Shown one piece after another: positions 5,108-31,124 of a stretch of 64,000 nt of DNA; positions within the stretch are counted from its first letter, which is position 1, and each line of letters starts with the position of its first letter. Under the pieces are notes generated by a model. The model worked only from the letters and a program-made list of their open reading frames with translations, made no database searches and had not been told where the DNA came from. The stretch is taken from assembly GCA_030141605.1 (NCBI GenBank), contig JAQGDQ010000145.1:310001-374000 (forward strand), in the 5' to 3' direction. The position numbers and the translations under genes were made by a program. This stretch comes from Tubiluchus corallicola (lineage: Eukaryota; Animalia; Priapulida).

Positions 5108-5175
<68 letters not shown>

Positions 5176-5599: not shown

Positions 5600-5630
<31 letters not shown>

Positions 5631-8600
5631 GTATATATAGTATCATGATCAGCTGCTACTAACCCTAACCCAACTCTAACCCTAACCCAACCCTAACCTA
5701 ACCCCCAACTAATTTCTTGTGTGTGGGGAATTGTAACTTTAGCCAATAAAATTTATTTTTAGCGATGCTCTTCTTACAAGTACAATAAATTGCTGTACAA
5801 GCTTTTTGGCTGGATTTGTTATCTTCGCCGTGCTGGGCTACATGTCACATATTACCAACGTTGATATTAAAAAGGTGGCCACTGAAGGTAAATCTTTTAT
5901 CACAACTTGCAAATTAATAATTATGAAAGCACGTAACTTTTCTAAGGCGTTACAAAAATAGAATTATCCACATTTAGCAAATAAATGTAACTTCATCAAA
6001 TGTAACTATGATAAATAGTGTTAAATAGTTCCATACCAGTCAAGATATGCAGTCTGTAAGGTAAATTGTTAAATTATCAAATGATCTGTATAATATCGTA
6101 TCATATATCTTTTTGCTATTAATTATTGAATTATATTTCGATGTTGTTTCTAAATTCTGGTAAATTTGTTTGTTTTAGATGCCTTAATAATGAATAGTTT
6201 TGTTCGAAACCGGTCGGCAATAAATTTCATTTTGATGACGTTGCAAAAATAATCGTGAACAGTAGCACAAAACAATTTGTTACATTAACGTATTACTGAA
6301 GCAGCACTGAATCTATTATACCTTCGATATTCAGTGTAGAAAACTCGTGCGGCTCGCCCATTTGTAATCTTGAGAGGCATGATCTTATTAGATCATCTGA
6401 ATGGCCTACAAATAGTAGCGAATCCTGAAACCCCTCTGAATTCATTGGAATTATCCCAAAAAAACCGAACGGAGGCTAAAATGATCCAAGAACACACCAT
6501 TGATCAGTATTCAAAACAAAGCTTATGAGGTACCTGCAAAATGTGTTGTAGGATCTTGAGTTCGATCCTGATCTCTTCAAGTCTCAGATCATACCTGGCA
6601 GTTGCGCGAGACCCACAAAACTTCCACGCTGAATATTGAGTGATAGATTAAGAATTGAAAAGAAATCAATAATTAAGAATTGAAAAATTGAAAAAAATGA
6701 ATAATTAATTCAGCAATACGTTTTGGTGCAATAAATTGTTGTGCACTCTTACTCGTAGATTTTGGGCTCCCTGGCAAAAAGTATTGTTACGGGGGCAAAA
6801 TGCCACTTATCTTCGACCCCCTCTACATTGTGATGGTTCGATCCATTACGAAGCCATTGCATATCAGCACTGCATAGCAAGCATAAGTAGCTGGTTTAGA
6901 ATGGCTTCGTCGGTTCAGTCGGCAGTGCGTTTACTACCTGAGCACCTGTTCCATAGTCATGATCAACATGAGGAACGCAGGAAAAGATTCTTGCTAGCTT
7001 TCATCTTAATTTTCTGTTTACATTTTTATATTTCTTCTCTATTTTCACATCTACAACATTTGCCTGCAAAGTGGTTTAGCTGATCCAGATTTGAACCCTG
7101 GACCTCTTAACCGCTTCCGCAACAATATTGTAACCTGTACGTAAAAGTGGTAAATATTATAGTTTGCTATTTTTATATAGGACCCGGATTAGTGTTTATT
7201 GTATACCCTGAAGCTATAGCCACAATGCCAGGAGCTACTATTTGGGCCGTCCTATTCTTTCTTATGTTGCTAACACTTGGCTTAGACAGTTCGGTAAATT
7301 ATTCAGTTATATGTTAATTCTTAACAAACCTTAATGTTAGGCATACTTTGTTTTCCCTGGCCATTCAAGCACAATGATAGTTTTTTGACTGTTCAGTATA
7401 CACTTCCTGTGTGCTGGGTATAATGGACAGTCAAGAATTGCCATTGTGCAAGACTGGTAAACTAACATATTCTTGTAACATTGTTGCCAATTATTTGTAA
7501 ACTGGAATCAGGTTGTACATTATCTACTTTTCCATTTTTTTAATCACTTTGGTTTACCTGTGTTTCGGTGAGGATAGATTGTTTATGATGTTTACGCTTA
7601 TCTAGTTTATGATGGATGTAAATATTTACACCACAGTTCGGTGTGTGTCACAAGAGAACTCGTCACTCATGTTATTCGTAAATGATAGATACTATTTTTT
7701 ATATATTTTGGTACACAGGATGTTAGGATCGAGCACTCTAGCAGTTGTGGCTGGAGCCTGGTTTATTATCAAGGATATCCTATTAGGATGAGCTACTGAA
7801 TTTGGAGAGGTGCTCGCACACCCAGAAGTAGTACTGATCCCTAGACGGGCCACAAAACATATTGGCCACAAAACTTGGCCAAAAGTCCAATCCGCTCTGC
7901 ACTTTTTTTCTAGTTCTCGTTCTCATATCATCACTAGTCTTAATTCTTCGTTACAGTTTGGAGGATCAGAAGCAATTATTACAGCACTGAGTGACGAATT
8001 TAAGTGGGTGAAAAGTCATAGAGAAATATTCATCGCCTGCCTATTCAGCCTGTATTTTTGTGTTGGACTCACAGCGTGTGCGCAGGTACTCGGTTCCTAA
8101 AATTTCATTTGTTTCAGTTGTACATTGAATTGGATTTGTTTGTATTAATTTTAGTTTACTTGACACATTTTTTAAATAGCTCTATTAGTATATGCGCATT
8201 CTGAAATTTCTTCACTAAAACACTGCAAGGGAATAGCTAGTAGCAGCAGCGACGGTGGCGTTCAGAAACACGATCGCGATGGAGTGTCGCTATACAATAC
8301 AATAAATGCAGAACAACACATTACAGTACAATACCGTACAACACAGTATAATACAGTACAACGCAATACAACACGACACGACACCATACAATGCAATGCA
8401 AGGCATCACTACACAATGCAATGTAATGCAATATAATATAATACAATTAAAATCACGTGTGTCATCTTCTACGCAAGCTCTTCTTCACACCCAATAATGT
8501 AACTTTCCGCTGAATCTCGTACGTAGGTTTCCCGGTTTAAGACTGAATGTCTGATAAAACAAGGTTACATATAGTGGGCTGCAAAAAGTGTTTTTCGTAT

Positions 8601-11600
8601 TTTAGGGTGGTAACTATTTTGTAACGTTACTGGACCGATACGCTGCGGGCTATTCAATTCTCATGGCCGTCTTTTTTGAAGCTCTAGTCATCTCATGGAT
8701 CTATGGTGAGTTCAAGGAAATGTTGCACGATTAAAACAAAAACTTTTTGGCTTCATATGTCGAAAGCGTCTATGTCTCAGAATGTTTTTATTAATGACAC
8801 TTTCTTAAGATTTGCAAGTAGTGTAAAATAAATTTTTGCAGTACTGGGACACGAAACTAGCTTGCGAATTTTTCTAAGATAATTTAACTAAGTCACCATT
8901 CAATCAGTTTAAGTTTGGCAGACCCGAAATACACAATCTGTCGGCTTTGCCTCCCACGTTCAAGTTTCCGACGCGAGTTTTTCAGTTCTGAGTTTGATGC
9001 AAATCCAGTTATGTTTATGACATAGTTGATTCCTAAATGCATATTTATAACATTTTCGTTCTTGAAATTTCAAGTTGAAATTCGCAAGTTGACCACATTT
9101 ATAATCGTGATGATTTCCTTATTTCAGGCGTTAATAGACTTAGCGATGATATCTATGAGATGTTGGGACGCAGAGTTTCTGTTTACTGGCGTTGGTGTTG
9201 GAAGTTTATTGCACCACCTTTTTTATTGGTAAGCATTTATATAGTTAAATACATGAAGGTACGTCACCTTTAAATTTGCTCGTTGTACAAGAACAACGAA
9301 TAATACTATGTATTACATTTAAGTTACTGTGGTGATGAATATACCATGCCTTAGTATTTCGCACAGGTTGACAGACTTCAGGGGTATGATCGGAGTAGCA
9401 CCTCGAAGATTTCAAGATCCACCAATACATCTTCCTCATGCCTCACAAGTCACAAGCTTGTCTGTTGAATACCGACCAGTGGCAAGGTCTTGGATCATCT
9501 TAGCATTCGCCTGTCTTTTATGACAACTCCAGTGTGTTTGGTGGGCTGATATCAATAAATTTCCAGGATATTCTATTCGATCGAAAAAGAATAATCCCAG
9601 TACTTAGATCACACACACCTCAGGAGGATTGTAAGCTGAGCGAAAAGCGCAAGGATTTCTCACCAAATATTGAATATTGAGAGCATGACAAATTCTTTAT
9701 TGCTTCAGCAATACTTTCATATAATATGGAACTTTGAAAAAGGAATAAATTTTGTAATATAACATAATATAATATAACTGTAATATTTACCTATTGTAAA
9801 GACCGTTTACTAATATAATTATTATTATTGTTGTATTGTGCGACGATTATACGCCTTGTGCGCGGTTTAGTCTGTGTAGTTTTTTGTATTGTAATGTATT
9901 GCATTGTATTTGTAATGTATTTTAATGAATTGTAAAACTGTACTGCTCAATGCCGTTACTTGTTGTTTTGTTGTTCTTGTTCCTCCATTTTGTAAAAAGT
10001 TATGTCATATCCTGTATTTTTATGTCAGTGTGCATCCGATAATTAATACTTTTATGTCCTATAACAATAATACGTACGTAGTGAAATAACCTTTGATTGG
10101 TCAGCTGATAAAGCTAGAAGCTTTATGAGAGTAAATAATGAGGGATAGAACTAACTGCGATTGACTATTCTTCGCTTGTAAAAGGTGTCAAAATCGTCTT
10201 ATTTCTAATCGCTGTTTTTCAGTTTATTGTCACATTTGGACTGATTTTCTACGCTCCACTGGAACACGACGATTACAAGTATCCTCACTGGGCAAATGTG
10301 ATTGGTTGGTTGATAGCAATGTCTTCTGTGGCCTTCATTCCCGGGTGTGCAATTTACACACTTGCTACCATTCCTGGCGATTCTTGGAGCGAGGTAATGA
10401 AAACCTAATCCTATTCATGCACCGTCTGCAATAAACTGTGTAGCACAAACCGCATTTGCGCGTACGCGGCAACAATATGTTGATCTAGTTTGATCTGATC
10501 ATGTCTGAATCAAATTTATCTGGTCTTGTCGTACATATTTTTATACCGTGCCCGCACACGAGAGCAGGATAAGTTTGTTTAAAGGGGAAGAAAAGGGAAT
10601 TTTAAAGTATATCCCAAAATATTTTCCACACAAAGTTATCTTAGTTAACATTTCGCTTACCTGTTTGAAGGACTTATGTAATTGAAAAAGAAAAGTTTTA
10701 GTAATTTAAAATTTTCGCGTTGCCTGGTAAAACAGCGCAACATTGCCATTCCAGTGTGCACCGCTGATCTACCTAAGAAGCACATTTTTTGATGTTATTG
10801 ACAACGTAAAGTAATTTAAACTTTTGGGTAGCTAAAGAAATTACTTGCTGTCAAAATGGCTGCCCGTAACTGCTGGTCATTGCTGGCATTTAAATTTACA
10901 AGTTTTACATTTCGTTACTGCTAACGCAAGCCCTGTATGCAATAAGACAGCATGTAAGTGGTATAAAATTTCAGGACGAATTTTTAAGCTCTGTTTATCA
11001 AGAGTACTTTCTTGCTATGTAAAATTAGAAAATTAGAAAGCATCTTTATGTTACAGTTGATAAAACAGCATTTATTGAGCCCGCGCAGGAGTAACAGTAC
11101 GTGTCAAACAAGTTGTTGCAGCTAGATTTTGTATCCTGTGTGCAGGACTGGATAATGACCGTTCGGGACCCTGGGCTAATGAAATTATGCCCCCCTCTTG
11201 GAGCCACCCTCCAACTTGTCCGCATCCGTTTTGAATATTTTTTCTCGGGATATATATATTTTCGCGACATTTACATAACTTGAAGTAAACTTATTGAAAA
11301 TTCGTTAAAGAACAGTCATCTTTTGTTTATCTATTAAAACATTCTTTAAGAAAAACCACTATTTAATGCGAAACAAATTAGAAAATATTTCAACGCATTC
11401 ATAGTGAGAAAAAGATTTTTTACTAAATGTTACCAAAGATCTAGGGTCCCCCGAGTTTGAGGTTGCCTAGGCTGCAGCTTATACTAGCCTATAAGACAAT
11501 TCAGCCCTGCCTGTGCGCGAAGTTTTAATAATCAGCTTCAGAAACCACTGCAATGCTTTACATTGTAAAAAATCATCTAGTAATGCAGTTACTCTGAAAA

Positions 11601-12088
11601 AAACGGTATGCTTTGCAACCGCGACTCTATTTTTCTCCTTGAATATTGATTTTCTGTTTCCTTTTTTGACAGATCGTAAATTGTAATAAATAATAATAAA
11701 AGCAGGTCTATCTTGAATTTTACTTCACGTATCTTAGCAACATACAACAATGGGTACATTAAAGACAAAGATTCAACTAACTTCGTTTAATTCATTAGAC
11801 AGTTTAGCAGAGGACACCTATATGTTGTGTATATTACTAGGATAGAAAAATCCCAGAAAATAAATAATGCGCCATCTATTGGGAAGCTAGACATTGCATT
11901 TGAGCTGCTTTTTAATTAAACTTCATCCATAACTGTACATATGTAATAAATAACAATACATGCGATGTCTTTTGTAGAAATTGAAAGCGTCGATAACACC
12001 TTGGAGGGACGTGGTTGCAGGCGATGATGTAAAAACAGAACAAAATGCTATACGACTGAGCGGAGGGGCGATGGGAGCGGCTGTATAG
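2454..12088 (+). CDS. DAT: Sodium/chloride-dependent dopamine transporter (SLC6, invertebrate DAT-like); 3' nine coding exons, 5' exons lie upstream of the window
   Basis: GT-AG exons joined in phase: 2454-2588, 3590-3693, 5763-5887, 7181-7293, 7957-8085, 8606-8705, 9128-9228, 10223-10393, 11978-12088 (TAG). Translation gives SLC6 motifs [98 protein letters not shown] and TPWRD. These closely match my recollection of Drosophila DAT. Confidence 0.93.
5100..5180. repeat. (TA)n microsatellite
   Basis: Direct reading of the sequence. Confidence 0.95.
5658..5745. repeat. Partial copy of the small TIR element with internal telomere-like (CCCTAA)n
   Basis: Degenerate CCCTAA array followed by AATTTCTTGTGTGTGGGGAATTGTAACTTTAGCCA, whose reverse complement matches the left end of the element at 30974. 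Confidence 0.65.
8292..8447. repeat. Degenerate pentanucleotide (ATACA/ATGCA)n simple repeat
   Basis: Period-5 pattern tacaa/cacaa/tgcaa visible in a DAT intron. Confidence 0.75.
11143..11509 (+). mobile_element. hAT-type MITE, copy 1
   Basis: Imperfect TIRs CAGGACTGGAT / AATTCAGCCCTG with 8-bp TSD CCTGTGTG / CCTGTGCG. Alignable along its length to 50750-51109. Confidence 0.85.
11869..11882 (-). promoter_or_regulatory. CTCF-like motif
   Basis: Minus strand CCAATAGATGGCGC, a close match to the CTCF core CCASYAGRKGGCRS. Motif match only. Confidence 0.45.
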
Positions 12089-15000
12089 AAAAGCCGGAGT
12101 ACCAAGTGTGAAATAACTGGATGGACCACAGAAGCATTAATAATAAGCTTTTTCACAGTTCCAGCGATTGATAATAATCGTGAAACGGTCAAGGTCAAAG
12201 GTTAAGTGTACCAGACAACGCATTTGTGTACACTTGATGCGGCCCATGCTATTGTAATAGTAACAGTTTTAAAAAAAAAACGGATGAATGTGTAAACACG
12301 AGTTCAGAATAAAGAATGCTCTAAAATATTGAAAACTACAATAGCTTATTTTAAATCAAACCTTAGACTAAATAATAATTACCTCGGATACTCAAATTTC
12401 GTTAAACTTTCAAAGCTACTCGCGGCTCAGTGAATCGGCCGACAAATAGAAGGCGGTATCGTGATAACCACAATCATGAACTGCTGTGTTAGTTTCATGA
12501 CGTCATATAATGTAAAGCCCATTTTTCGTGACATGCATTTAAACAGTACTGTAACACCTATGCAAATGTACTTGACGCGCAAGGAAAACGCCTGCCATTG
12601 CACAACTATGATTAGTTTCTGACGTAAGCAATAGCTGTGTTCGGTTGCCGTTAATTAACTTTCTCAGCTAATTATTCAAATATAAGGAACAATAGTTAAC
12701 ATTTACAGACAAGAAAATGTATATTTTGGACAGTAAATTCAAATGAGATTGAGTCTAAACAATCGACCGGTCTTTCTTTAAACAGCTAGTTAGAAGAACC
12801 TTACCTGGCTCATTTTTTCTTGTTCCCAAGAAAGAACCTGGTAGTAAATCACTCTACGCACAGACTAATGTGTAACTAAGTAAATTCTACACAAACAACT
12901 GAAGTTATTGAACTGATGCGGCAGACGGCTTTGCTTTACACACATGTCACGTGACGGTTGTAGTTAAGACACGTTCCTGTGGTACACTTAACAATTTACC
13001 TACAGCAACTGCGCGTTATTAAGCAGATCTCTAACTGATATTAAACTAAGTCGCAGAGCTTACATGGGTTTTGCTGTAATACAAAATTGGTAAGCCTCAT
13101 TTAAAAAGTAAATGTTTTGTGTGCTCAATGCAACTTTAATATTTTGCTGAATCCTACTGACTACATCATGATCATTCTGTTTGCTACTGATTGAGTTTTG
13201 TAGAAGTGATAACACAATGTATAACAATGTTATTGTCGTATATTAGGAAGCTCTGTTAAAATAGACGCTTAATTAAACGAACGTTTTTAAGACAGCTATC
13301 AACTTCTGATAGTGAAAAAAGTTGCAGACGTTATAAATATAAATGTTATTTATATGAGTTACTGTTACGACACTTATTTATACAAATTATAAAGTCACAT
13401 ACCATCTTTATTTTGTGGCTTGACTTACGTTTGCGCGATAGAGGGCATTGTTTTCCCTGTTGTATTGCAGTGGTGCAATTTGATTTTTTATTTATAGATT
13501 GAACTATGATAAACATTTAATGTAAAACATACCTGATGTAATACCTCATTATTTATCTCTTAGAATATTGAGCGCATGTTATAAATGTCGGTAGACGTGT
13601 TACCATAATTATGTAAAAGCACTTAGATAATACGGCAATTAGTAATTTAGTTTCACGTAATAGTTATACTTATGCACTCTCATAGATATTATTGCATTAT
13701 AAGCATTGTTGAGAGCTTCGGAACTGTGTAACATTATGTAGTTGAGAATTTAAATTTTCGTTGGGACTATAGACCTCGGGCAATAGGCCTGATACATGAA
13801 GTCAATCTTGTTAAAAAAAGCACTATTACTATGGACTTTACGTGTTTTGTATGAATTAAGATGTATTTTAATTCATATTATGCGAGTATTAGAGTCAACG
13901 AATATTTACGATGTCAATAGTGTGTCCCATATATACTGTATTCTACACCAAGCCGAGACTTGTTTAAACTTCGCCCTGTTGGGCCTTATAGATTTAACTT
14001 CCAATATCTCCATTAACTGCAGATGTTAAAAACTACGGAATTGGACATTTCATCTAAATGTTACATTTTTATTTTCATCTTATTTCTTCTAAAACTGCAT
14101 GTTGACTATTTTAGCCGAAATCAACAGAGGACAAGCACTTGTTTAAAACACTCCTCGTTAAGCTTTAAATTTGAAACAACTACGTCAGATTTATTTACCG
14201 AAACAATCGAAAACTGCATGGTGCATTTTGTTCAGCTGTCTAATCACAAAATCCATTCTGATACGTAGACATAGGTTTTTCATTTTTTATATTTCAATGA
14301 AAAATTGCATCGAAACAAGTGTAAAGAAGCAATAAAATCAGAATAGCAGTAGTTTTTGTAGCTATAAATAAAAAAATGTATCATAGCGCACTTTTGCTAG
14401 TATCTGTATAGATGTAACTTATGTAAACAAGACGATATATGAAAATAAACAAGAAAAATGATCGAAACTCTTTAAATAATAATTCCTTGAATATAAACGT
14501 AGCCAAATGCAGCCTAAAAGGTATAGACATTTTGTATATTTTGGGACTTAAAGTGGTTTATTGTTACGAGCATAACGAATAGACCATAGTAACTTGAAAG
14601 CGTCTCGTCAACATAACCTACTCTAAGCTACTAAATGACTTGCATAGTCAGTTTACATATTTGAAAATGTTTGGTAAAAAATGCTACTGCATTGAGTACT
14701 AGTTTAATGACGTTGAAGTTACTGATTGCAGTTATGCTCAGTAAAGTTAAATAATTATTGTGAAGTCTAACCTGATCCACGAATAAAGTGTTTTTCTGTA
14801 CTTACTTAGTGGCCCTGGTGTAAATAGACTCCACAAGTATACTACACTTATATGTATAATGTATAGTAAAAGGGTCGTACTATAGATCGTAATTATTGTA
14901 CTAATCTCATACTTAATTTGTAATATGTTGTACTACAATTAACGTGCATAGTGTACCAGTGTTGTTTTGTGCATGCGCGTAACAGTAGTAACAGGTGCTA

Positions 15001-16654
15001 AGTTTAACTTGTTTGTGTTAATGAAGCGAGTAGTCGTGTTATTATTGTTACGTTGTTACACAGTTAAATTGCCGTTTGTATTTTACGTTAAATGCGTCGT
15101 TGTTTACTGTTAAGTTATTGAATAGTTGATAAATAAATTAGAGATAATGTATACAATTTTTCCACATTTTTTATTAATTTTGTTCAGTGCTTCAGCTAAC
15201 AATTAAATACTACTAGCAAACTATTAAGTACTGCGTTGCCAGTGCGCCAAAACTGAAACAACATAGATTGATTATTATACTTACGCCAAAAGCAAACAGA
15301 TTTTCCTTTTCTTTCTTTGTGATTGCTCGGAGTGTTAGGGAGCATTTGGTAAGAGCGAATTGGGTGATGACATATGCACCAAATGACAGCAAACAGATTC
15401 ACCTCTCTGTTTAGCTGCAACATACTCATTTATCGTGATGTGTTTCCATGTACATGTATTTCAATAAGTCTAAGAAGTTGGGGGACCCATTCTAACTATT
15501 ACTTGTCGGCTTGGAAACCATTTTTGCTGAGTGTGAACAACCTATATGCCTAAGTGTTTTTTTTTTTGCTTCGTTAGTGCAAAATATTACAACTCACTCT
15601 CTTCACTTCAACTATTTAAAGAATACAGGCATATAGAGGAAACATACTGAACTCTGTAAAAACAGAAAAAACCAAAATCTCTTGATTATGGGTTTTTGCC
15701 TACACGATCAGCTTTTAAAATTGACATATCGCTTTTTTTTAAATCTTCGTACCGAACTAAAATCAATTTTTAAAAAATGACATCTAAGCTTGATAATTTT
15801 GTTTGATTTACTGCATTTTTATTAATTTTAAATAACATTATATACGCAATAGTAAAGTATTAAGGTAACAGTCAAGGTGCCAGATGATATTTACAAACGA
15901 TTGATAACTGATAAAGCATAATAAATTTGTCACAACTTAACAGTCCACAGTTATAGGCTCTTTCTTAATTCCACATCATTGTCTAAAACATAGGCCTATA
16001 GTTGCTGTTTTGCATTTCTTGAATACTTAGGTTATTGTAGAAGTGCAAATGTACAAAAATATAAGCATTTCAATGATAGTGAAAATGATAACAATGTCGA
16101 TGAAGTTAATCACTACATTGCTGACAATGATTATGGCGTCAGCGACGTTGTTGACGGTGGTAATAGCGATGACCGTGATGATAAATAATTATTATAAGCT
16201 CGTACAATTAATAACATTAATGCCCTGCCGCACCATCATGTCTTTCTCATGGTGCCCTTATTCTACATATCGTTAAGATAACCACTGATTCAATAAGGAT
16301 GGCAAAATATTGTGGGCGACATTTAATACTAGTAATAGATATAAATTACTGACTGATATACATATATACATACAACGCTCATCATAGGCCTTATTCTTGA
16401 AGTACATTGTAAAGTGTCTTTACCTCTACTGCGTTGCACAAGTCGTTTCCTGATCCACTGTATATTTTTACCTCTTTTATCCTTTATTCTTATCATATAC
16501 AGTATTGTGTGCTGTCGGTTTTTATGTGTGCGCTATGAATGCAATCAATAATTTGTTGATTTTTTTGTTCGAAATATTTTTCCGTTTATATACTTCATTC
16601 GTTCCTGCATTATTCGCCTACTTGGTTGCATGCATGGAGTGATTACTTATTTAC

Positions 16655-16656
16655 TA

Positions 16657-16729
<73 letters not shown>

Positions 16730-16730
16730 G

Positions 16731-16790
<60 letters not shown>

Positions 16791-17012
16791 CACTAACTTG
16801 CTTGCTTGCTTACTTGTTTAGATACATTCTTACTTAACTCACTCACTCACTCACTCACTCACTCACTCACTCACTCACTCACTCACTCACTCACTCACTC
16901 ACTCACTCACTCACTCACTCACTCACTCACTCACTCACTCACTCACTCACTCACTCACTCACTCACTCAGTCAGTCAGTCAATCAATCATTCATTCACTC
17001 GCTTGCTTACTT
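16655..17012. repeat. Compound tetranucleotide microsatellite (GCTT)n-(ACTT)n-(ACTC)n-(AGTC)n
   Basis: Direct reading. It explains the spurious LLTY and LTHS ORFs. Confidence 0.95.
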
Positions 17013-17049
17013 ATGACGCTTGTGGCTTTGGCAACGCCATTGACGCAAA

Positions 17050-20000
17050 TTATTCAGCTCTCTTGTTGTCGTAAAAACGAGACACCATTTGTGGCATTGG
17101 CATCATCGGGGCTGCTTCTTCGATTACCCCTACTTCTTCTAACCTTTCAGGTGAAGCTTCTTCACTTCTTTTCTTGCTTATTAATTCAAACCAGGCATTT
17201 TGAATGTCACTACCAATTAAAGGAAAACGTACCCCTGTTGCCGGGTTTGCATCTGTCAAAGGCTGAGAGTCTATCACGTCTTCCTCGTCACTACCGTCAC
17301 TAACAGCTTTCGTTTGTTTTACATCTTCAGCCATACCAAATGAAAGTTCAGCACTGTCTCTTAATGTTTTTATATTGTCACCTTCTTTTTGCAGTGCTGC
17401 ATCTGTTGGCCTTCTATTGGTTGGTTGCCTGAAGAAGCGTGACACCATTGCTGGCATCATCAGTTGTGTGCCTTCATCAGTATCACCACCAGTTTCAACC
17501 TTGTCATCTTCTTGAACATGCAGAATTGCTTTTTGTCCATCTATGAGTTGTTCGCCTGTTCCAGATTTTTCTAATCCAATAGTTTGGTCAGTGTGGGGCT
17601 GCTGACTAAAAAATCGCGACACCATCACTGGCATCAACATTGATGCATCTTGTACTGACGTGTCAATAATTTTGACGTTGTCATCCATTTGGGTTTCTAA
17701 ATTTAATTTTGATCTAGACATGCCATCTACTTGGGTGTTTAAATTGGATTTTGATCCAGACATGGTTCTTTGGTCTGCTTCAGTTTTTTCTTCTACTGCA
17801 GTTGATTGATCAATTAGAGATCGCTTGTCGAAAAATTGGAAAACCATTGGTGGCATAATCATTTGTGTATCTTGCCGTTTTTGGTCAACTGATAATTCAA
17901 GGCTTGCATCTAGTTGAGCAGTAGCATCAGTTGTTGATGTGGTTTTTGTTGGTGTTATAGCAGCAGTAGTACTAGGCTGTCCAAGTTCTATTGATGTTGC
18001 AGTGATCTCGTCATTTTTGTTATCTATTTCAATCTTATCATCTATTTGGTTATTTAACCTGGACTTTGGCTCAGATACAAACCGTTGACCCACTTCAGGT
18101 TGCTCTTCTGCTGGTTGATCAACCTCAGTTCGCCTTTCGAAGAATTGGAAAATCATTGGTGGCATAATCATTTCTGTTTCTTGCTGTTCTTGGTCAATTC
18201 GTTCTTGGTCAACTGCTAACCCAAGACTGGCACTAGGCTGATCAGTAGCATCGCTTGTAATTGTAGTTTTCATTGGTGTTATAGCAGCAGTGGTTTCTGG
18301 CGTAGTAGTGGATAGTTCAGGTGGTTTTGTTGTTGCTGAAGATGCAGCGATCTTGTCTGCTTTGTCAACAAATTCTGTAACAAAGGACTGTGGAACCCTT
18401 GTGGATTGTTCCTCGGTTGCAATAATTTGCCTGGATGCATCAGATCCAAAAAATCTGAATGTCATTGGTGGCATCACCATTGGTGGATTTCGTTGCATTG
18501 GATCAACTTCTATTATATGTTGTCCAACGGTTTCAGTGTCATCACTTACTTCTTGCCTTGTTGTGAGAACTGACCTACCTGCCAAATTTTCAGACTCTCC
18601 CGATTTTGGATCTGTTTTTACTTGGGAAGTATCCTTAATAGATGTTTTGGGTTTCATTTCCTCTTCTTGGATGTCTTCAATCTTCAGTAATATGTCAACT
18701 CCTGTTCTCCCATTTTCTTCCACAATCTCTTCTTCAGATTGCATGAATGTTTCAACTTTTTCACTAGTTCTTGTTTGCTGAACTGGCACTGTTACTTCTT
18801 TTTCCCCATCCACTTCTATTACTATTGTGTTAGAAGTCTTTTCAGTATTTGCTGTTATCTGTTCCCTTGTTGGTGCTTCTCTTTCTTTGTCTGAAGTCAA
18901 TGTGCCTCGTTCTGATGACTTCATGACTGCAGCAGTTAGTGAACTTGATAATGTGTTTGTAGATCCTACTTGATTAGTTGTTTGTAGTAGCTGGTCTGGT
19001 TCTGTTAATTCTTGTTCACTGCCAGTCTCTGTATCTGTTACTTCAGATGTCATTTTGGTTCCTATTGAGGTATCCGTGCCAATTTTTGATGTAACTGTAC
19101 CGCTTAATGGACTTGTCTCCCCTGATGTATCTGTCGATATTACTGCTGATTTGGTTTGATCAACTCCCATTGTGATTTTCTCTTTTGAAATTTTAACTTC
19201 AACACCTGACGTCAATTTAGTGTCATCTGAAGACAGCATTTCCCAATCGTGTGCAGCTGAAGACTGATCTGTTGACTCAGCTGATTCAATTGTATTCTGT
19301 TTTTGTTCTTCTTCTGACCAATTATGGCCTAAGGTTGTATCTGTAGTAGACGCATTTACTTGTTGTGTGGCATCTACTACTGCATTGGTTATCACTGTAT
19401 CATTAGTGCACACATGACCATATCCACGAATGTAGTAACAAGTTGGACTTGTAACCAATGCTGGTGTTGACGCTGCTGTTGGTGCTTCGGCTGCTAGTGT
19501 TGTAGCAATATTTTGGGTGTCACTATCTGAAGAAACATCAACAGACGCATTACATATGTAGCCATAGGGCTCTCTATAAGAACAGTTTGAAGGATCTTTT
19601 TGAACTGCCGTTGTAGTTGCAGGTGTAACTGTAGTACTTTCACTTGATTCTGGTGAACATATTGTACCATACCCTTCGATAAAGTAACATTTTTGTGTAA
19701 CTGTAGGAGCACCTGTTTGTGTATCAGGTTGATTATCTTCCTCTGGGATTGGTGTGACCGTTGCCTCTTTACTGCCTTCTTCTGAGTCTGGTGTAACAGA
19801 TTCATCTTGCGTGACAGGTTGGCTATCTTCTTCTAAGATTGGTGTAACTTTTGCCTCTTCACTGTCTTCTTCTGAGGCTGGTGTAATAGTTTCATCTTCA
19901 CTTGACACGGGTGAACATATTGTACCATATCCTTTGATAAAATAACATTTTTGTGCAACTGTAAGAGTACCTGTTTGTGTATCAGGTTGATTATCTTCCT

Positions 20001-22379
20001 CTGGGATTGGTGTAACCGTTGCCTCTTTACTGCCTTCTTCTGAGTCTGGTGTAACAGATTCATCTTCACTTGATGCTGGTGAACATATTGTGCCATATCC
20101 TTTGATAAAATAACATTTCTCTGCAACTTTAGGAGAACTTGTTTGCAGAACGGTTTGGTTGCCGTCTTCTGAAGCGATTTGTAGAGGAAGTGATGTTGCT
20201 GAAGTCGATGTTGTTGTAGATGGATCAGCAGCATCCATTATTTGTGCTTCAGATGACTCATAACAAACTCGTCCATAATCTCTGTGATAATAGCAAATAG
20301 TTTTTGCCCCACCATCTGTAGTAGATGGCGATGAGGTAGTTGATGAGACATTGTCATTGTCCATTTGCTCTTTTCTAGACTTACAAACGTACCCATATCT
20401 TCTGTCATAGGCACAATCTTGTTTAGAGTCATCTTCTTCATCAACATCTTCAACTTGTTCCACTTCTTCGTCATCTTCATCGACTCCTTCATCCGCTCTT
20501 CCAGACTCTTCTGTTGCTTTAGTAGTGATATCTCTACATCTCAATCTTCTTTGGCCATAGTAGTACACAAATACGCAGTCTTGTTCCACTGGTGCACTGG
20601 TACTTGTAGTTGTTGGTGTTGATAGTGCTGCTGGAGTTCTTGCTGTTGCTTCAATTTCTTCTGCTTGCTCTGTGCCTTCTGCAGGTTCTTCCGTTGTTGT
20701 TATCACGGGTATTATGTGTGGAATTGCTTCGTACCCATAATGCGTTCCAAATAGACGGATGGAGTTACCACCTATATTAACTTGCACACTAGTTGGTTCT
20801 AGTCCATAATGGAGTGGATTAAAGTATGCAAAATCATCGTGTCCATAACCATTGTATTGCTTTTGCCAGGTCATTTTGTTAACTTTGGGCAAGTCATATT
20901 GTTCTCTACCCTTCTCATGTGCGTTTTCTGGTCCACTGATTGACAGTCTACAATTAACAAAATAAAAAACGGTAAATCCAATTCTTAAAATACAAAGGCG
21001 CCCACAAAAGCAAAAAGTAGCAGTAAATACCGTTTATGACACAAATTGTTCTTTAATATTATTCATGCAAGTTCATACTCATGCAAATTAGGCCTGCCTA
21101 CTATGTCGGCTGAGTTTGTACAATGTCATTTCTACCGTTCGATTGATCAGAGATCCAACTTTAATAATCAATAGTTTTGCCAAAGCTTATATTCTGATAT
21201 ATTTAAAATCGCTGTATTGTATTATCGAAGCCGAATAATCAGATACAAATCTATTAAAATTTTGTAGTGAAGGATGGTAGATCGGCAGATCGACCATGGC
21301 ATCGATGAGAGTAAGAAATGGATGATATCTTCTTGACTATTTAGGCCATTTGCATATTATGCCAAAAATTGGAAAAACTAAAAGAAATTATTATTTCCAA
21401 AATGTTCTTTATAAGAACTTTCTAAGGAGCAAAACATATAAACGCTAAAGTAAAGCTATTCTCACCTCTCATTTGGCGGTCGAAGAGCATTGAAACTACC
21501 CGCCCTTCTTTGTGATCTTCCTGATGCAGATGGCGCGTATCCTGCATAACCACTGTTTTCACCTCCACTGAACCCTCTTAACTGTGAAGATCGCCCTGAG
21601 TATCCTCCATATCCTGCCGGAGGTCTCACCCTTCCCCTGCTGAAACCCCTTGATTGTTGCGATGCTCCTGGCAGGCCTAATTTATTCTGTAAATTCAACC
21701 GCTGCAATCCTGGATCCTCACGTCCCTTCCCAGCACCAGAACTTATGGCTTCCATTTGCTGGCTAAAGATGGAGGACAAATGGTCTGTTCTACCTGTGCG
21801 CACTCCTTCAAACAACTTCTTTCCATAATTCGAATCCGGCTGTTCAATTAAACCGTAGCCTTGTCTACTTCGATCACTGACCTGATTGGATCTGCCAGTC
21901 CTAGCATTTTCAAAGAGTTGCTTGCCATAGTTTAAGTTAGGTTGTTGTATTAATCCAAAACCCTCATGTTGCGGCAGGACCGGAACTCGCCCTCTGGACA
22001 GTGCGAAACTTCGGCCGGCATTTCTACCGACATGGCCATACTGAGCTAGACCACCTCTCAACGATTGCTCCCTACCAGCAGGTGGAATAGCTAGATCACC
22101 TCTCAACGATCGCCCTCTACCAGCTACTGGAAAAGCTATACCACCTTTAAATGATCGCCCCCTGCCAGTAGCCGGAAAACTTCTGCTGTTGCTCCTAGAA
22201 GTATCAAGATTCCGGACATTTCTGCTGTCTAATGAGATAGCAGGATTACCTCCATTGTTACTACCAGACAAGGTTTGAGTCCTTCCAAAAGGGTGTAAAA
22301 TTTGATTGTCAAAAGATCGATCTTGCTCGTTGTAAGAAGGCGCAGAAGAGTGTTGGTCAAACTGACAATCCACAACGCC
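17050..22379 (-). CDS. Uncharacterised large modular repeat protein (at least 1603 aa; possibly secreted/extracellular); 5' exon(s) unresolved
   Basis: Exon 22379-21466 (acceptor ttatag|GGC, donor AG|GTGAG) splices in phase (AG+A=Arg) to exon 20947-17050 (acceptor ttgtag|A, stop TAA). Together these give 4.8 kb of open frame in an AT-rich genome, with internal repeats conserved at the protein level. Confidence 0.88.
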
Positions 22380-25300
22380 CTATAAGAAAATTAAGCATTA
22401 GTTTAGCACTTTGTACGTGTGTGTTACTTTACTGAATTAGATTCTATTTTACTTGCTAAATAAAATTTAAATATTACACCTTATCAGTGTCCGTGACTTG
22501 CATGGCTGAAATGCATTGTAACGATATTATATTACTGGCACACTTTATGTTAGTTACCTTCATTTGTCTAAAATTGTAATTACGTTTAAATTATTATTTT
22601 TTATCATATTGGGTGTTTCAGAAGTCCCTCACTATTTTTAAACGTTAATAAAAGTTAATAGCAATTACAACAAAATGGCAATGACAACTCAGTTTACGAT
22701 TAACAGTAAGTTTAGTGGACTCAAACTAAGTCTCATAAGTCTATTGCGAGGACTTTAATTAATACTTGGGCACAACGCTCTTGTGTTAATATAGTCATGC
22801 AACGACGTCACGCCTCTGCACTAGAGTCAGCATGACAGCAAAAGAAAACGGCGTAAAACGTAGACTAAAAAATCCCAATTACTGAAAAAGAGTTTGTCAC
22901 AAGATGAATGTGATCTGTCTATTAGCTGGAAAGGAAATTGGAAAACAAACTGATGAATAACTTGCCAAACATAATTTATTACTACATTTTCAATGTCATA
23001 GCAAGTTATATTTGTCTAGATTTTGAAATTTAAGTAAATTATTTAACTTCTGATTAGGAAACGTAGACGTACAAGGCGCAAATGAATTTTACATTTTCAG
23101 GACAAGAGCAATTTATTTTCCAGGCATATAATTGTATAGTAAAATTTCCAAATTTAATATTCAATTTAAAAATGCTTAAAATGCACAGGAATGAAATTTG
23201 TAAGCTCATGGGCTGTAAAGTATGCAAAAGTGAACTTATAATTTCAATTTTCTAAATATATCTGCTTGAAAAATGAAAATATTCGTAAAGTTCAGTTTTG
23301 CAAAAAAAGCTTTTCACAGTCTTTATTTTAACATTAAATTTACACATGTTGAACAATGCTGTTGTATCATTTGAAATAGGAATTCCGATTAGTAAGAATT
23401 GTAAATCGAATTACTTTATTAAACACCGGTCATTACCCTCGGCTTATTTAAAAACACTTCCATCTTTCTCTTGTCTTGAGAGTCGGGGTTAGGCGATACA
23501 CGTCGAGGGTTGCGAATGGGCCTCACAGTCACAAGTTGAGTGCCTCTCTTCATCTAAATCTGGCCCTGAGTAGGCCTATAAATGTTTTGTTTTTGGATCC
23601 TTTTGTCAGTCTATAATTTATATCCTATATAAGTATGTAACCCGCTGTATAGCACTTATTTGGAAATTATGTACGTTAGGGCAAGTTACAAAATTTTCAG
23701 GGGAAATTCTTTCTCCCCCCCCCCTCTTTGTGAAACTTCCTCCCGTATGCCTATGTACGGAAATGCTTTTACAATACTAAATTTTACAATACTCCATTTA
23801 TACCACACTCATTGTTCATTAGTTTATTCACTCAAAATGCTGTTTCTCAACGACAAACAAACAAAAAAATATACGTACCCAAGCAATGGCAAGCCACACA
23901 ATGTTAATAAACTCTGAAAGAATAAACAAATGAAAATGAATTGCGAACTATGTCCGATAAAAGCCTGTCAAAATGATCTCCCCACGAGAAGCAGTATCGT
24001 ATTTGGAAATCTATGGTATATATTGGTACATACATACCAATATATATATATATAATTTTTCAAGTTTTCTGGGACCAGCTAATGTAATGTTAAAAAAAGA
24101 GGGCCTCGGGGCGGTTAGGGCTTCACCGAGTCTAAATCCGACACTGACGAGAAACGTAACTTTAAACGCGTAAAATGAGACAAAGAAATGTTAAATAGGT
24201 CCATAAGTAGGCCTTTTGAATGTTAAATGAATTTAATAAATGTATGTTACTATAATAAACGGGGACCTATGATCGTGCAATTTGATTGTAACTTTTTTCT
24301 TTTGGGAAAGCTAAATTCGCAGATCTCAAAAACGCTGCAAGAAACAGCGGTTAATGTATAATTAGAAATCCTTGTGGAATTTCTTCAGATTAGAACACGT
24401 TATGATAAAATGAAAAATAAAAAGTAAAAAGAAATAGCAAGAACAAACAAACAAAAAGAGGCAAAAACAAAAACTGACGTGTATAATTAACACTATAAAT
24501 AGATAGAAAGGTTTATCTGCATACAAAAATTGTAATGGAAAAACTAAAAAATTGCATTTACAATTAAGAAGACAAATAAAAGACATTAACTTCATACGAC
24601 AATAAAATGATAAAAATATATTAAGATCATACAAAGTGCAATACTGGTAGTACAACCTATTGACAAAAAATGCGCAATAACACGATAAACTTTCGTTAAA
24701 AAATCAAATAAAAACTAAAAGATTGCACTTCTTCGTCAAGATCGTATTACTACCACTTTAGGTTAAAACTCACGATTTGTTTTACGTGTTCTAGCAAGTG
24801 GCTATAACTATAATGACCCCGTAGTAATTAATTGCACTTCATTGTCACGATTATTCAACAATCCTAATAAAAAATATATATCAATATATATCTACATTAA
24901 AATTATAAACAACTTATGCTCATTTACCGTGCATAATGTTTAACAAACGAGCAGGCGTGGTTCGCAGCACGACCACGTTCACACAGAAAATCCGCAGTTC
25001 CTAAATGAGTTCACTTTTCAAGTGACATTTGCTTAAATATAGGAGGCCACAGTGTCACTAGATCAATGTTAAAAAAACTGTAACTTTAAAACTATGATTC
25101 ACTGCCATTATCGAGAGTGTTTAGTCTAGGGTTTGGTCGTTAACTTCGCACGTATACATTAAACAAGCCAATTGTTGCATTGCTTGTTTTATATATGTTG
25201 TCCTTATTAAAACAAACTAATTTTAACATCTGACTTGTTCAAAATTTATTATCTGCATATAGTGGTAGGCTATATATATTTTTATTTATTCTTTTACTTC

Positions 25301-26930: not shown

Positions 26931-28271
26931 ATGGAGGTGACTAATATTATACTCCAGCTGGTGAGCTGTGGTTCAGCACTTCTTCTTCTGTGTATTTTGT
27001 TCCTAGCTTTGACTGGCACCACAATTGGTGTTCGCAGACGCTACATCAAGGTCCTACTGTGGATATTTGACTATGGCAGATATCGGATACAGACAGCAGA
27101 ACGTCATCGCCTTGAGAAAGAATGTGACACACATGATCTTTCTGAACAAAATGACGGAGTGCGTGTCATCGAAAGAGCAGAAAAGTTGTCCATGGAAAAA
27201 GACGACGTTTTCAGGAGTCGGACCGCTTCTGCGTTGAAGAGAGAATTTTCTCTTGCTGATTCAATGCGATTCTGCAAGGTTGGCATTGAGTCAATAATAG
27301 AAGATGAAGTGACTCAAAGGTTTGCAGCTGAAGAATTGTACTCGTGGAACCTGCTAACCAGAACTAATGCAAACTATCAGTATATCAGTTTTCGTCTTAC
27401 AGTTGTCTGGGTCCTTGGATTCTTTTTTCGTTATTTCATCTTGCTACCATTCAGAATTTGCATTATTTTGCTTGGAACTGTTTGGCTAGTAGCTGCTACA
27501 GCTTTGGTAGGATATCTACCAGACGGAGACTTGAAACGCAGGGCTAATGACATTGCTACTAAAAGTGGTTTCAGGATACTAGCGCGGTCTGTTTCTGCTA
27601 TTATTACTTACAATGACGCATACAATGCTGCTAAAAATGGAGGTATCTGTGTAGCCAATCACACGTCGCCAATAGATGTCGTTCTTTTATCTTGCAGTCA
27701 TTCTTACGCTCTGATTGGTCAAAGTCAGGGTGGTTTCCTTGGTGTGCTGCAACGTGCAATGTATCGGGCATCAAATTCTCACATCTGGTTTGAAAGATCT
27801 GAAGTGAATGACAGACACGCTGTTGCTCAGAGATTAAAACGCAATGTAGGAGATACTACAAAACTTCCAATTCTGATCTTTCCCGAAGGCACATGTGTTA
27901 ATAATACTTCAGTGATGATGTTCAAAAAAGGCAGTTTCGAAACTGGTGCAACAATATTTCCCGTAGCAATTAAGTATGACCCTAGATTTGGCGATCCCTT
28001 CTGGAATAGTTCTAAGATGGGATTTATACCTTACATGATTATGATGATGACAAGCTGGGCCATTGTGTGTGATGTTTGGTTTCTGCCTCCAATGTCACAG
28101 CGACCTGGTGAGACCTCCGTGGACTTTGCAAGTCGAGTGAAGGGTGCCATTGCACGAAAAGGAGGCCTAGTTGACTTAGAGTGGGATGGCCAACTGAAAA
28201 GGATGAAAGTGAAAGAGACCTGGAAGGCAGAGCAGCAGCACAGATACAGCAGGATATTGAAAGTCGAATAA
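26931..28271 (+). CDS. GPAT3: Glycerol-3-phosphate acyltransferase 3/4 (microsomal GPAT, AGPAT9/AGPAT6 family), single coding exon
   Basis: 446-aa ORF with an N-terminal hydrophobic segment, WNLLTRTN, acyltransferase blocks NHTSPID (HxxxxD), WFERSE, LIFPEGTC and FPVAIKYDPRFGD, and C-terminal GGLVDLEWDGQLKR. Probable 5'UTR acceptor ttttttcag ending at 26781. GPAT3 versus GPAT4 cannot be resolved; likely a co-ortholog. Confidence 0.95.
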   Translation: MEVTNIILQLVSCGSALLLLCILFLALTGTTIGVRRRYIKVLLWIFDYGRYRIQTAERHRLEKECDTHDLSEQNDGVRVIERAEKLSMEKDDVFRSRTASALKREFSLADSMRFCKVGIESIIEDEVTQRFAAEELYSWNLLTRTNANYQYISFRLTVVWVLGFFFRYFILLPFRICIILLGTVWLVAATALVGYLPDGDLKRRANDIATKSGFRILARSVSAIITYNDAYNAAKNGGICVANHTSPIDVVLLSCSHSYALIGQSQGGFLGVLQRAMYRASNSHIWFERSEVNDRHAVAQRLKRNVGDTTKLPILIFPEGTCVNNTSVMMFKKGSFETGATIFPVAIKYDPRFGDPFWNSSKMGFIPYMIMMMTSWAIVCDVWFLPPMSQRPGETSVDFASRVKGAIARKGGLVDLEWDGQLKRMKVKETWKAEQQHRYSRILKVE

Positions 28272-29149: not shown

Positions 29150-29450
29150 TAAGAAACAAAGAAAGAATAAAGGTAGAAACCAAGAAAGAAAGAAAAAAGA
29201 GAAAAGAAATAAAGGTAGAAACCAAGAAAGAAAGAAAAAAGAAAAAAGAAAGAAAGAAGAAAGGAAAGAAGGAAGAACAAAAAGAGACACAGAGAAAGAA
29301 AAAAAATGAAGAGAAAGAACGAGAGAGAGTGCAAGTAGGAAAAAAGAGACAGAAAGAAAGAAAAGAAGAAAGATAGAAGAAGAAGAGAAAAAGACAGAGA
29401 GAGAGAAGAAAGAAAAAAGAAAGTAACAAAAAAGAAGAAAACAAAAATTT
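29150..29450. repeat. A/G-rich low-complexity (AAAG)n-like polypurine tract
   Basis: About 300 bp almost entirely A/G on the + strand, including a duplicated AATAAAGGTAGAAACCAAGAAAGAAAGAAAAAAGA segment. Confidence 0.9.
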
Positions 29451-29467
29451 GCAAATAAGAATTAATT

Positions 29468-29786
29468 GCAAATAAGAAACGAATTGTTGACCACAGAGTA
29501 ACAATTTTGCAAATAAGAAGCGAATTGTTGACCACAGAGTAACAATTTTGCAATTAAGAAACGAATTGTTGACCACAGAGTAATAATTTGCAAATAAGAA
29601 ACGAATTGTTGACCACAGAGTAACAATTTTGCAAATAAGAAACGAATTGTTGACCACAGAGTAACAGTTTTGCAAATAAGAAACGAATTGTTGACCACAG
29701 AGTAACAATTTTGCAAATAAGAAACGAATTGTTGACCACAGAGTAACAATTTTGCAAATAAGAAACGAATTGTTGATGACAGAGTT
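29468..29786. repeat. 41-bp minisatellite, about 8 copies
   Basis: Unit GCAAATAAGAAACGAATTGTTGACCACAGAGTAACAATTTT starting at 29468, 29509, 29550, 29590, 29631, 29672, 29713 and 29754; no spacers. Confidence 0.95.
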
Positions 29787-30973: not shown

Positions 30974-31124
30974 TGACTAAAGTGTATAATTCCCCATACA
31001 CAAGAAATTTGTTCGTGAAGCGCATTAGGATTATAGTTAGGGTTAGGGTAGGGTACGTTAGGGTTAATGTTAGGGCTAGGATTAGGGTTAGGGTATTTAA
31101 ATTGTGTGGGGAATTGTAAAGTCA
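30974..31124. mobile_element. Small (~150 bp) TIR element with internal degenerate (TTAGGG)n
   Basis: Left end TGACTAAAGTGTATAATTCCCCATACACAA and right end TTGTGTGGGGAATTGTAAAGTCA are imperfect inverted repeats enclosing TTAGGG variants. A second partial copy lies at 5658-5745. Confidence 0.65.

What the first reader, a model, noticed from the sequence alone, without database searches (positions are those of the whole stretch)
17050..22379. Orphan >1600-aa charge-segregated modular protein: candidate adhesive/matrix or secretory-granule system
Seen: two very large exons splice in phase. The first encodes a basic Arg/Gly/Ser-rich block. The second encodes a Tyr/His-rich segment, eight Cys-Tyr-Gly mini-loops, long Thr/Glu/Asp-rich spacers, then six Met/Phe motifs. 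I recognise no known domain. Inference: short conserved aromatic 'stickers' on disordered spacers, plus a basic block next to an acidic block, is the design logic of coacervating invertebrate glues, tube/cuticle cements and biomineral matrix proteins. The first identified exon begins GVVDC-QF, which could be the end of a signal peptide, but the upstream exon is unresolved, so secretion is unproven.
Basis: partly seen in the sequence, partly recalled or inferred. Interest (0 to 1): 0.85.

Follow-up and report, generated by a model that had tools for sequence, protein, structure and literature searches.

The report
Orphan secreted hairpin-and-spacer matrix protein
An invertebrate gene is predicted to splice four exons into a 1,617-residue, likely secreted, mostly floppy protein with no relative found, in which eight predicted disulfide-closed hairpins and six methionine/phenylalanine motifs likely act as sticky points along acidic spacers to cross-link an extracellular layer such as cuticle or a gland secretion.

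Summary
Exons 22379-21466 and 20947-17050 (minus strand) join in phase. I found two upstream micro-exons (24934-24928, 23913-23879), each top-ranked by splice score, giving 1,617 residues with a signal-peptide-like start. Splicing and expression are untested. All 16 mature cysteines lie in eight Tyr-Gly loops; the one loop modelled with an alignment is a confident beta-hairpin. Between internal repeats, motif cores show far fewer replacement than silent changes. No relative was found, but the basic block was not searched in the large protein sets. The self-coacervating glue reading is weak: charges are +21 against -124, Tyr is 2.4% and Ser 10%. New here: dibasic sites follow 4 of 6 Met/Phe motifs (2 of 20,000 shuffles), hinting at convertase cutting. 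Best reading: a lineage-restricted sticker-and-spacer matrix protein (0.5). The GPAT neighbour places the animal outside arthropods and molluscs; other scan notes suggest a priapulid. The scan had not noted this protein elsewhere. Real and uncharacterised, but of a common general kind.

The parts
25003..25041 (-). TATA-like box (25041) and initiator-like element (25008), predicted core promoter about 70-110 bases upstream of the start codon
   Evidence: Pattern match; the spacing (about 33-35 bases) is slightly longer than the recalled consensus; function untested
24928..24934 (-). Predicted exon 1 coding part: start codon plus 4 bases, phase-1 GT donor
   Evidence: Top of 54 ATG..GT phase-1 candidates upstream of exon 2 (2.5 against -1.0)
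23879..23913 (-). Predicted exon 2 (35 nt): hydrophobic core of the signal peptide
   Evidence: Top of 349 open phase-0 internal-exon candidates by splice score alone (8.4 against 4.3); the most hydrophobic 15-residue windows of the whole protein start at residues 3-5
21466..22379 (-). Exon 3 (914 nt): predicted signal-peptidase site after residue 19, then the basic Arg/Gly/Ser block (residues 20-306, net +21) with three 15-residue and two 34-residue repeats and an R-x-x-R-R site at 302-306 (21518-21504)
17050..20947 (-). Exon 4 (3,898 nt): residues 319-1617 and the stop codon
   Evidence: eight long contigs of run X1 lie on the gene with no gaps
20710..20871 (-). Tyr/His/Gly-rich segment (residues 345-398)
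   Evidence: low-confidence strands in the model
19408..20577 (-). Eight Cys loops (residues 443-456, 497-507, 537-547, 597-607, 653-663, 739-749, 774-784, 822-832) on acidic Thr/Glu/Ser spacers; predicted disulfide-closed beta-hairpins. Loops 4-6 are recent duplicates
18484..19407 (-). Motif-free Thr/Ser/Glu spacer (residues 833-1140)
   Evidence: Ser+Thr 29%, no Tyr or Cys
17071..18477 (-). Six Met-Pro-x-Met-x-x-[RQ]-Phe-[FY] motifs (residues 1143, 1246, 1349, 1423, 1482, 1602), 59-120 residues apart, four followed by KR or RR within 8 residues; plus an aromatic stretch ending in basic residues at 1558-1579
16483..17049 (-). Predicted 3' untranslated region with tetranucleotide microsatellites (16643-17000) and the first polyadenylation-type hexamer at 16488
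   Evidence: end of the transcript untested

Best explanation
The gene is predicted to encode a 1,617-residue, likely secreted, mostly disordered matrix protein whose eight predicted disulfide-closed aromatic hairpins and six Met/Phe motifs likely act as multivalent sticky points on long acidic spacers, cross-linking a hydrated extracellular layer such as cuticle or a gland secretion. Shown: the frames, the block layout, the motif counts, the charge split and the constraint on motif cores. Predicted: the four-exon splice, the signal peptide and the hairpin fold. Inferred: (1) each Cys pair closes in the ER; (2) the spacers are O-glycosylated and partly phosphorylated at S-x-E sites and stay extended; (3) the Tyr/Phe faces of the hairpins bind a polysaccharide such as chitin or each other, with Tyr open to oxidative cross-linking; (4) the Met/Phe motifs cluster hydrophobically; (5) the basic block binds polyanions or is cut off at 302-306; (6) the large excess of negative charge is bridged by divalent cations or another basic protein, not by the protein's own basic block.
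For: Exons 1 and 2 rank first of 54 and first of 349 by splice score, and give the only strongly hydrophobic stretch at the very start. All 16 mature Cys are in 8 local pairs. One loop folded with the 8-loop alignment is a hairpin, strands 9-14 and 18-23, pLDDT 91 over residues 11-20, with the two Cys opposite. All 8 loops appear as hairpins in an otherwise low-confidence model, mean pLDDT 40. Five of 6 segments tested (all but the Tyr/His segment) fall on the unfolded side of the charge-hydropathy boundary. 40 of 51 aromatics after residue 400 lie in motifs covering 13% of the chain. Between internal repeats, pN/pS is 0.03/0.32, 0.04/0.21 and 0.08/0.81 in motif cores, against 0.15/0.22 and 0.20/0.42 in spacers. 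S-x-E occurs 24 times against 12.9 expected, 4 of 2,000 shuffles. Precedent: 48% of proteins secreted during the C. elegans pharyngeal moult are predicted disordered, in lineage-restricted families (PMC9629831, abstract, passages, section 11); velvet-worm slime proteins are 188-231 kDa, disordered, with short beta elements (PMC9218773, passages).
Against: No relative or family was found, so function rests on anatomy alone. No chitin-binding or cuticle domain scores in Pfam. The C. elegans cuticle secretome is biased against charged residues (PMC9629831, section 11), while this protein is 25% charged. The S-x-E excess shrinks to 16 against 10.9 (118 of 2,000 shuffles) once duplicated units are dropped. 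The pN/pS counts are small (10-43 codons) and the cores were chosen for conservation. The 8 exonic differences in run X1 are 6 replacements and 2 silent, about what no selection would give. A two-codon first exon at 22563-22558 with a stronger donor (4.1 against 3.4) would give a start without signal peptide. AT-rich introns give other hydrophobic frames too, so hydrophobicity alone does not pick exon 2. The splice matrix was a rough one from recalled frequencies.
Confidence: 0.5

Rival explanations
1. A granin-like or prohormone-like precursor of the regulated secretory pathway: convertases would cut at KR/RR to release fragments ending in the Met/Phe motif, which act as signals, while the acidic chain packs the granule.
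For: Dibasic sites follow 4 of 6 motifs within 8 residues (2 of 20,000 shuffles); 3 of 5 without the recent duplicate (4 of 5,000), and the excess holds for windows of 4-15 residues (at most 65 of 5,000). Motif 3 has KR on both sides and would give a 16-residue peptide starting with Gln. The chain ends two residues after the last KR.
Against: Only 1 of 6 motifs has dibasic sites on both sides; only 1 is followed by Gly, with no basic pair after it. Dibasic sites are not enriched overall (10 against 8.5). Only 1 of 8 Cys loops has a dibasic pair within five residues outside it. One X1 contig changes the first Arg of the pair after motif 5. The 8-residue window was chosen after looking.
Confidence: 0.2
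2. A self-coacervating glue or cement: the basic block and the acidic blocks of one chain condense by charge pairing, and Tyr is turned into DOPA for adhesion.
For: Sharp charge segregation, pI 11.4 against 4.1-4.4. 16 Tyr-Gly pairs. S-x-E sites; FAM20C kinases are proposed for tubeworm cement (PMC12621633, passages).
Against: +21 against -124: the basic block could offset about a sixth of the acid excess, less after phosphorylation. Tyr 2.4%, Gly 7%, Ser 10%, Lys about 4%, against 72.9% Ser in Pc-3 and Gly-rich repeats in Pc-1/2; those proteins are 128-405 residues (PMC12621633, passages and Table 1).
Confidence: 0.12
3. A mucin-like surface or gut secretion whose glycosylated spacers carry small hairpins that bind or damage microbes.
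For: Pro+Ser+Thr is 31% in the acidic regions. Loop 2 shares six residues with the Cys-rich motif of Asian shrimp crustins (PMC10363340, passages). Disulfide hairpins are a known antimicrobial shape (own knowledge; alvinellacin appears at rank 30, E = 10, which is chance level).
Against: The loops carry net charge -1 to +1 (one +3) inside acidic flanks, unlike cationic hairpin peptides. No WAP, vWD, cystine-knot, SEA or chitin-binding domain. No structural match at E <= 0.001 among 31 rows.
Confidence: 0.12
4. The 5' model is wrong and the protein is intracellular, for example a scaffold with an RG-rich nucleic-acid-binding block.
For: The two-codon first exon at 22563-22558 has the second-best donor of 274 in the upstream region. 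The basic block has 15 Gly-Arg and 8 Arg-Gly pairs.
Against: Exon 2 has the best combined splice score by a wide margin, joins exon 1 and exon 3 in phase, and supplies a hydrophobic core just before a small-residue cleavage pattern. Strictly paired Cys fit an oxidising compartment.
Confidence: 0.06

Closest known systems
C. elegans pharyngeal-cuticle disordered families IDPA, IDPB, IDPC, APPG (PMC9629831; abstract, passages and section 11 read; consensus logos in Fig. 9 and supplements not seen)
   Same: Secreted, domain-free, low-complexity, lineage-restricted proteins with short conserved motifs; IDPB and APPG are Cys-rich; they come from a moulting animal
   Different: That secretome is biased against charged residues and its families are reported only from nematodes; this protein is 25% charged, has 1% Cys in strict local pairs and has three distinct blocks
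Velvet-worm slime proteins ES_P1 and ES_P2 (PMC9218773, passages read)
   Same: Similar size (177 kDa here; 188-231 kDa there), mostly disordered, Gly/Ser low-complexity start, short predicted beta elements as aggregation points, few Cys
   Different: Slime proteins are 16-17% Pro and 9-10% Lys with Cys near the ends forming inter-chain links; here Pro is about 6%, Lys about 4%, and the Cys are internal pairs. Not aligned directly
Sabellariid cement proteins Pc-1 to Pc-5 / Sa-1 to Sa-5 (PMC12621633, passages and Table 1 read)
   Same: Signal peptide, no conserved domain, basic and acidic components, Tyr-Gly and His-rich stretches, possible FAM20C sites
   Different: Cement uses separate 128-405-residue proteins with extreme Gly/Tyr or Ser bias; here one long chain with unmatched charge and modest Tyr and Ser
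Granins and repeat-type neuropeptide precursors (own knowledge; no paper on them read beyond the listing)
   Same: Signal peptide, acidic disordered chain, dibasic sites behind repeated hydrophobic motifs
   Different: Motifs are sparse, mostly not flanked on both sides, not amidated, and the Cys loops lack cleavage sites
Penaeid crustin Cys-rich region (PMC10363340, passages read)
   Same: A Gly-rich start followed by a short Cys-x-Tyr...Tyr-Gly-Tyr-Val-Cys stretch; six residues equal to loop 2
   Different: Crustins are small, have four Cys in that motif and need a WAP/four-disulfide core, absent here; likely coincidence or convergence

Membership tests
Sabellariid cement proteins | Gly/Tyr-rich repeats (Pc-1/2) or about 73% Ser (Pc-3), 128-405 residues | tested here: not met
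   Gly 7%, Tyr 2.4%, Ser 10%, 1,617 residues
Sabellariid cement proteins | Oppositely charged components able to form a complex coacervate | tested here: inconclusive
   Both signs present but +21 against -124; partners or cations unknown
Sabellariid cement proteins | DOPA and phosphoserine; expression in cement glands | not testable with these tools
   Needs proteomics and in situ hybridisation
C. elegans IDPA/IDPB/IDPC/APPG | Signal peptide, no known domain, predicted disorder | tested here: met
   (signal peptide judged by hydropathy and pattern; SignalP not available)
C. elegans IDPA/IDPB/IDPC/APPG | Bias against charged residues | tested here: not met
   9.4% basic plus 15.8% acidic against section 11 of PMC9629831
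C. elegans IDPA/IDPB/IDPC/APPG | Sequence match to the family consensus; moult-timed expression | not testable with these tools
   Logos are in a figure that is not held; no hit of any kind
Velvet-worm slime ES_P1/P2 | Pro 16-17%, Lys 9-10%, Cys near the termini | tested here: not met
   Pro about 6%, Lys 68 of 1,598, Cys at 443-832
Neuropeptide precursor / granin | Repeated motif flanked by basic cleavage sites | tested here: inconclusive
   4 of 6 downstream, 1 of 6 on both sides
Neuropeptide precursor / granin | Gly plus basic residues behind the motif (amidation signal; recalled rule) | tested here: not met
   0 of 6; one motif has Gly without a basic pair
Chitin-binding cuticle or peritrophic proteins | Rebers-Riddiford or peritrophin-A domain | tested here: not met
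   No Pfam family above noise
Gel-forming or membrane mucins | Pro/Thr/Ser-rich region plus vWD, cystine-knot, SEA or membrane anchor (recalled definition) | tested here: not met
   PST 31% at most; no such domain; no second hydrophobic stretch
Crustins | WAP / four-disulfide-core domain | tested here: not met

The most novel reading that the evidence does not exclude
One gene encodes a whole multi-component material: convertases cut the precursor into a polycation (20-306), an acidic chain with eight disulfide hairpins, and several acidic fragments each ending in a self-associating Met/Phe motif, which then assemble outside the cell. This would give two new sticker motif families and, if the animal is a priapulid, a cuticle or gland structural protein from a group for which my searches listed none.
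Probability: 0.15. Interest if true: 0.7.

Novelty: new variant of a known kind. Interest (0 to 1): 0.4.

Why it matters
Secreted disordered proteins with short motifs build cuticles, slimes and glues, and each lineage seems to invent its own. This one offers two short, synthesisable motifs, an 11-residue disulfide hairpin and a 10-residue Met/Phe motif, which can be tested directly for binding and self-assembly. If the genome is a priapulid's, it is an entry point to the cuticle or secretion chemistry of an early-branching moulting animal. Against that, domain-free secreted orphans are common in invertebrate genomes (own knowledge), and without tissue data or relatives the finding does not yet answer an open question.

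Tried and rejected
No whole genome is held for this window, so paralogues could be sought only in the window: none. Sequencing runs: no RNA holder listed; the guessed-RNA run X2 laid 0 contigs; neither bears on expression. X1 is genomic in type (a contig runs through intron 3) and may be the window's own source, so it is not independent support; its uneven depth was not interpreted; two one-base gaps near 20456-20462 come from one low-depth contig in an acidic repeat where only partly fitting contigs pile up. Complex prediction for two copies of a Met/Phe motif peptide: no answer, score 0.02 against a mark of 0.32, alignment not used, controls not run. Homology searches without a hit: Pfam (two rows at E 6-10); word-indexed search with residues 320-844 among proteins of 713-2,272 aa and with 1119-1617 among proteins of 30-712 aa; phmmer of residues 320-840 over 1.84 billion representatives; ESM Atlas (one viral glycoprotein cluster at 0.75, below the usable level, none); PDB sequences (best E 0.045); PDB folds of the hairpin; metagenome contigs (64 and 148 pattern matches, none confirmed); exact look-up (0 of 3). 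Blastp of the protein against itself reported no internal repeats; pairwise local alignment did. Ser-Gly (proteoglycan-type), N-glycosylation and R-x-x-R sites are not enriched, so the site at 302-306 is not special statistically. Paper searches without a describing paper. Supplements were not opened; Fig. 9 and supplements of PMC9629831 could bear on the comparison with IDPA/B/C. Scan notes: nothing near, by sequence or by words. The GPAT tree (34 rows, 33 of 120 listed hits) could not name the phylum.
Full report
Observation. The two large minus-strand frames exist and are far beyond chance: about 1e-38 and 1e-9 at the window's stop frequency. The GT after 21466 and the AG before 20947 join them in phase. 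The eight Cys/Tyr/Gly loops and six Met/Phe motifs are there as counted. A six-frame scan of the window finds the strict loop pattern only in this frame.

The missing 5' end. Upstream lie a 35-base exon (23913-23879) and a 7-base coding exon (24934-24928). I scored all GT and AG sites between 22380 and 26930 with a rough matrix of recalled splice frequencies. The 35-base exon is first of 349 open, phase-compatible internal candidates (8.4 against 4.3). The 7-base exon is first of 54 start-codon candidates (2.5 against -1.0). A TATA-like box and an initiator-like element lie just upstream. The four exons give 4,854 bases and 1,617 residues with no internal stop. The first 19 residues hold the only strongly hydrophobic stretch of the protein, followed by a small-residue cleavage pattern before Gln20. 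SignalP was not available. Two cautions: AT-rich intron frames are often hydrophobic, so the ranking by splice score is the real argument; and a two-codon exon at 22563-22558 has a slightly stronger donor and would give no signal peptide. I put secretion at roughly 0.85-0.9. Splicing and expression are untested.

Anatomy. Residues 20-306 are basic (net +21; Gly, Ser, Arg) and hold three 15-residue and two 34-residue repeats. Residues 345-398 are Tyr/His/Gly-rich. Residues 401-835 carry the eight loops on acidic spacers; loops 4-6 are recent duplicates. Residues 833-1140 are a motif-free Thr/Ser/Glu spacer. Residues 1143-1611 carry the six Met/Phe motifs, 59-120 residues apart. Everything after 306 is net -124. 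All 16 mature Cys are in the loops. Of 51 aromatic residues after position 400, 40 lie in motifs that cover 163 of 1,217 residues. Five of six segments tested fall on the unfolded side of the charge-hydropathy line; the Tyr/His segment sits on it. AlphaFold2 on residues 320-840 without alignment has mean pLDDT 40 but draws all eight loops as hairpins. One loop folded with the eight-loop alignment gives a two-strand hairpin at pLDDT 91 with the Cys opposite each other; the disulfide distance itself was not measured, and the fold search found no match at E <= 0.001.

Constraint. Between internal repeats, motif cores show pN/pS of 0.03/0.32, 0.04/0.21 and 0.08/0.81; spacers 0.15/0.22 and 0.20/0.42; the 34-residue basic repeats 0.25/1.06. 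Counts are small and the cores were picked for conservation, but silent change with fixed residues argues for a protein-coding gene with selected motifs. Eight long contigs of run X1 lie on the gene without gaps. Their 8 exonic differences are 6 replacements and 2 silent; none is in a motif core or makes a stop, and one removes the basic pair after motif 5. That ratio gives no sign of selection on the spacers.

Processing signals. KR or RR follows 4 of 6 Met/Phe motifs within 8 residues; 2 of 20,000 shuffles reach that. Without the duplicate it is 3 of 5 (4 of 5,000), and other windows give at most 65 of 5,000. Only motif 3 is flanked on both sides, none has an amidation signal, and dibasic sites are not enriched overall. 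They may be convertase sites or simply a cationic edge of the aromatic motif. S-x-E, the FAM20C pattern (PMC12621633, passages), occurs 24 times against 12.9 expected (4 of 2,000), while E-x-S is at chance; after removing duplicates the excess is weak (16 against 10.9; 118 of 2,000 global and 52 of 2,000 local shuffles).

Relatives. None was found for residues 320-840 among 1.84 billion representatives, for 320-844 among near-length proteins, for 1119-1617 among shorter proteins, or in Pfam, PDB, the ESM Atlas and metagenome contigs. Gaps: the basic block and residues 845-1118 were not run against the two large protein sets, and the Met/Phe region was not run against full-length proteins. Six motif strings searched in about 8.4 million papers gave one paper, on crustins; the WAP domain that defines crustins is absent.

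Context. The gene lies between an SLC6 transporter gene (plus strand, exons from about 2.4 kb) and an intronless GPAT3/4 frame at 26931-28271, head to head, followed by a BAR plus SH3 gene. None suggests a shared function. The GPAT is 58-59% identical to its best full-length hits and falls outside the arthropod group (support 90/87) and the mollusc group in a 34-row tree. Several unreviewed scan notes on this genome call it priapulid-like. I could not confirm that: no priapulid was among the 120 listed GPAT hits.

Mechanism. The best fit is a secreted sticker-and-spacer matrix protein (0.5): hairpins and Met/Phe motifs as multivalent contact points, acidic modified spacers as a hydrated net, and a basic block that binds polyanions or is removed. 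The partner (chitin, itself, another protein) and the tissue are inferred. Rivals: a convertase-processed granin-like or peptide precursor (0.2); a self-coacervating glue (0.12), weakened by the six-fold charge mismatch and the low Tyr, Gly and Ser; a mucin-like defence protein (0.12); an intracellular protein (0.06).

Comparison. It works like the lineage-restricted disordered proteins of the C. elegans pharyngeal cuticle (PMC9629831; abstract, passages, section 11) and like velvet-worm slime proteins (PMC9218773; passages), but fails membership in both on composition, and fails for sabellariid cement proteins (PMC12621633; passages, Table 1), crustins, mucins and chitin-binding families. Searches for priapulid cuticle or gland proteins listed no describing paper (listings only).

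Verdict. A real, intact, probably secreted orphan with two new short motifs. It is a new variant of a known kind.

Noticed in passing
window 26931-28271 (+): Full-length GPAT3/4 acyltransferase in one unbroken frame (446 aa), head to head with this gene; no listed hit is above 59% over the full length and its branch is rather long (0.96), so it may be a retrocopy or a naturally intronless gene.
   Followed up: partly
window about 2450-12100 (+): Exons of an SLC6 neurotransmitter transporter (Pfam SNF on 3 frames); it looks like an invertebrate dopamine transporter (label recalled, not tested).
   Followed up: partly
window about 47000-61830 (+): Exons with BAR and SH3 matches and an acidic exon at 60610-60993; amphiphysin-like (label recalled).
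   Followed up: partly
window 22563-22558 (-): A start codon plus one codon before a strong phase-0 donor; if used as an alternative first exon it would give a form without signal peptide.
   Followed up: partly
window 23100-23700: Many divergent contigs of run X1 pile up in intron 2, indicating a dispersed repeat.
   Followed up: no
window 29466-29785: Tandem repeat of 41 bases, 7.8 copies, 95% alike, next to a purine-rich simple repeat at 29151-29447.
   Followed up: no
window 31025-31094 and 5659-5704: Decayed telomere-like hexamer arrays inside the chromosome arm.
   Followed up: no
window 16643-17000: Long tetranucleotide microsatellites start 50 bases behind the stop codon, within the predicted 3' untranslated region.
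   Followed up: no
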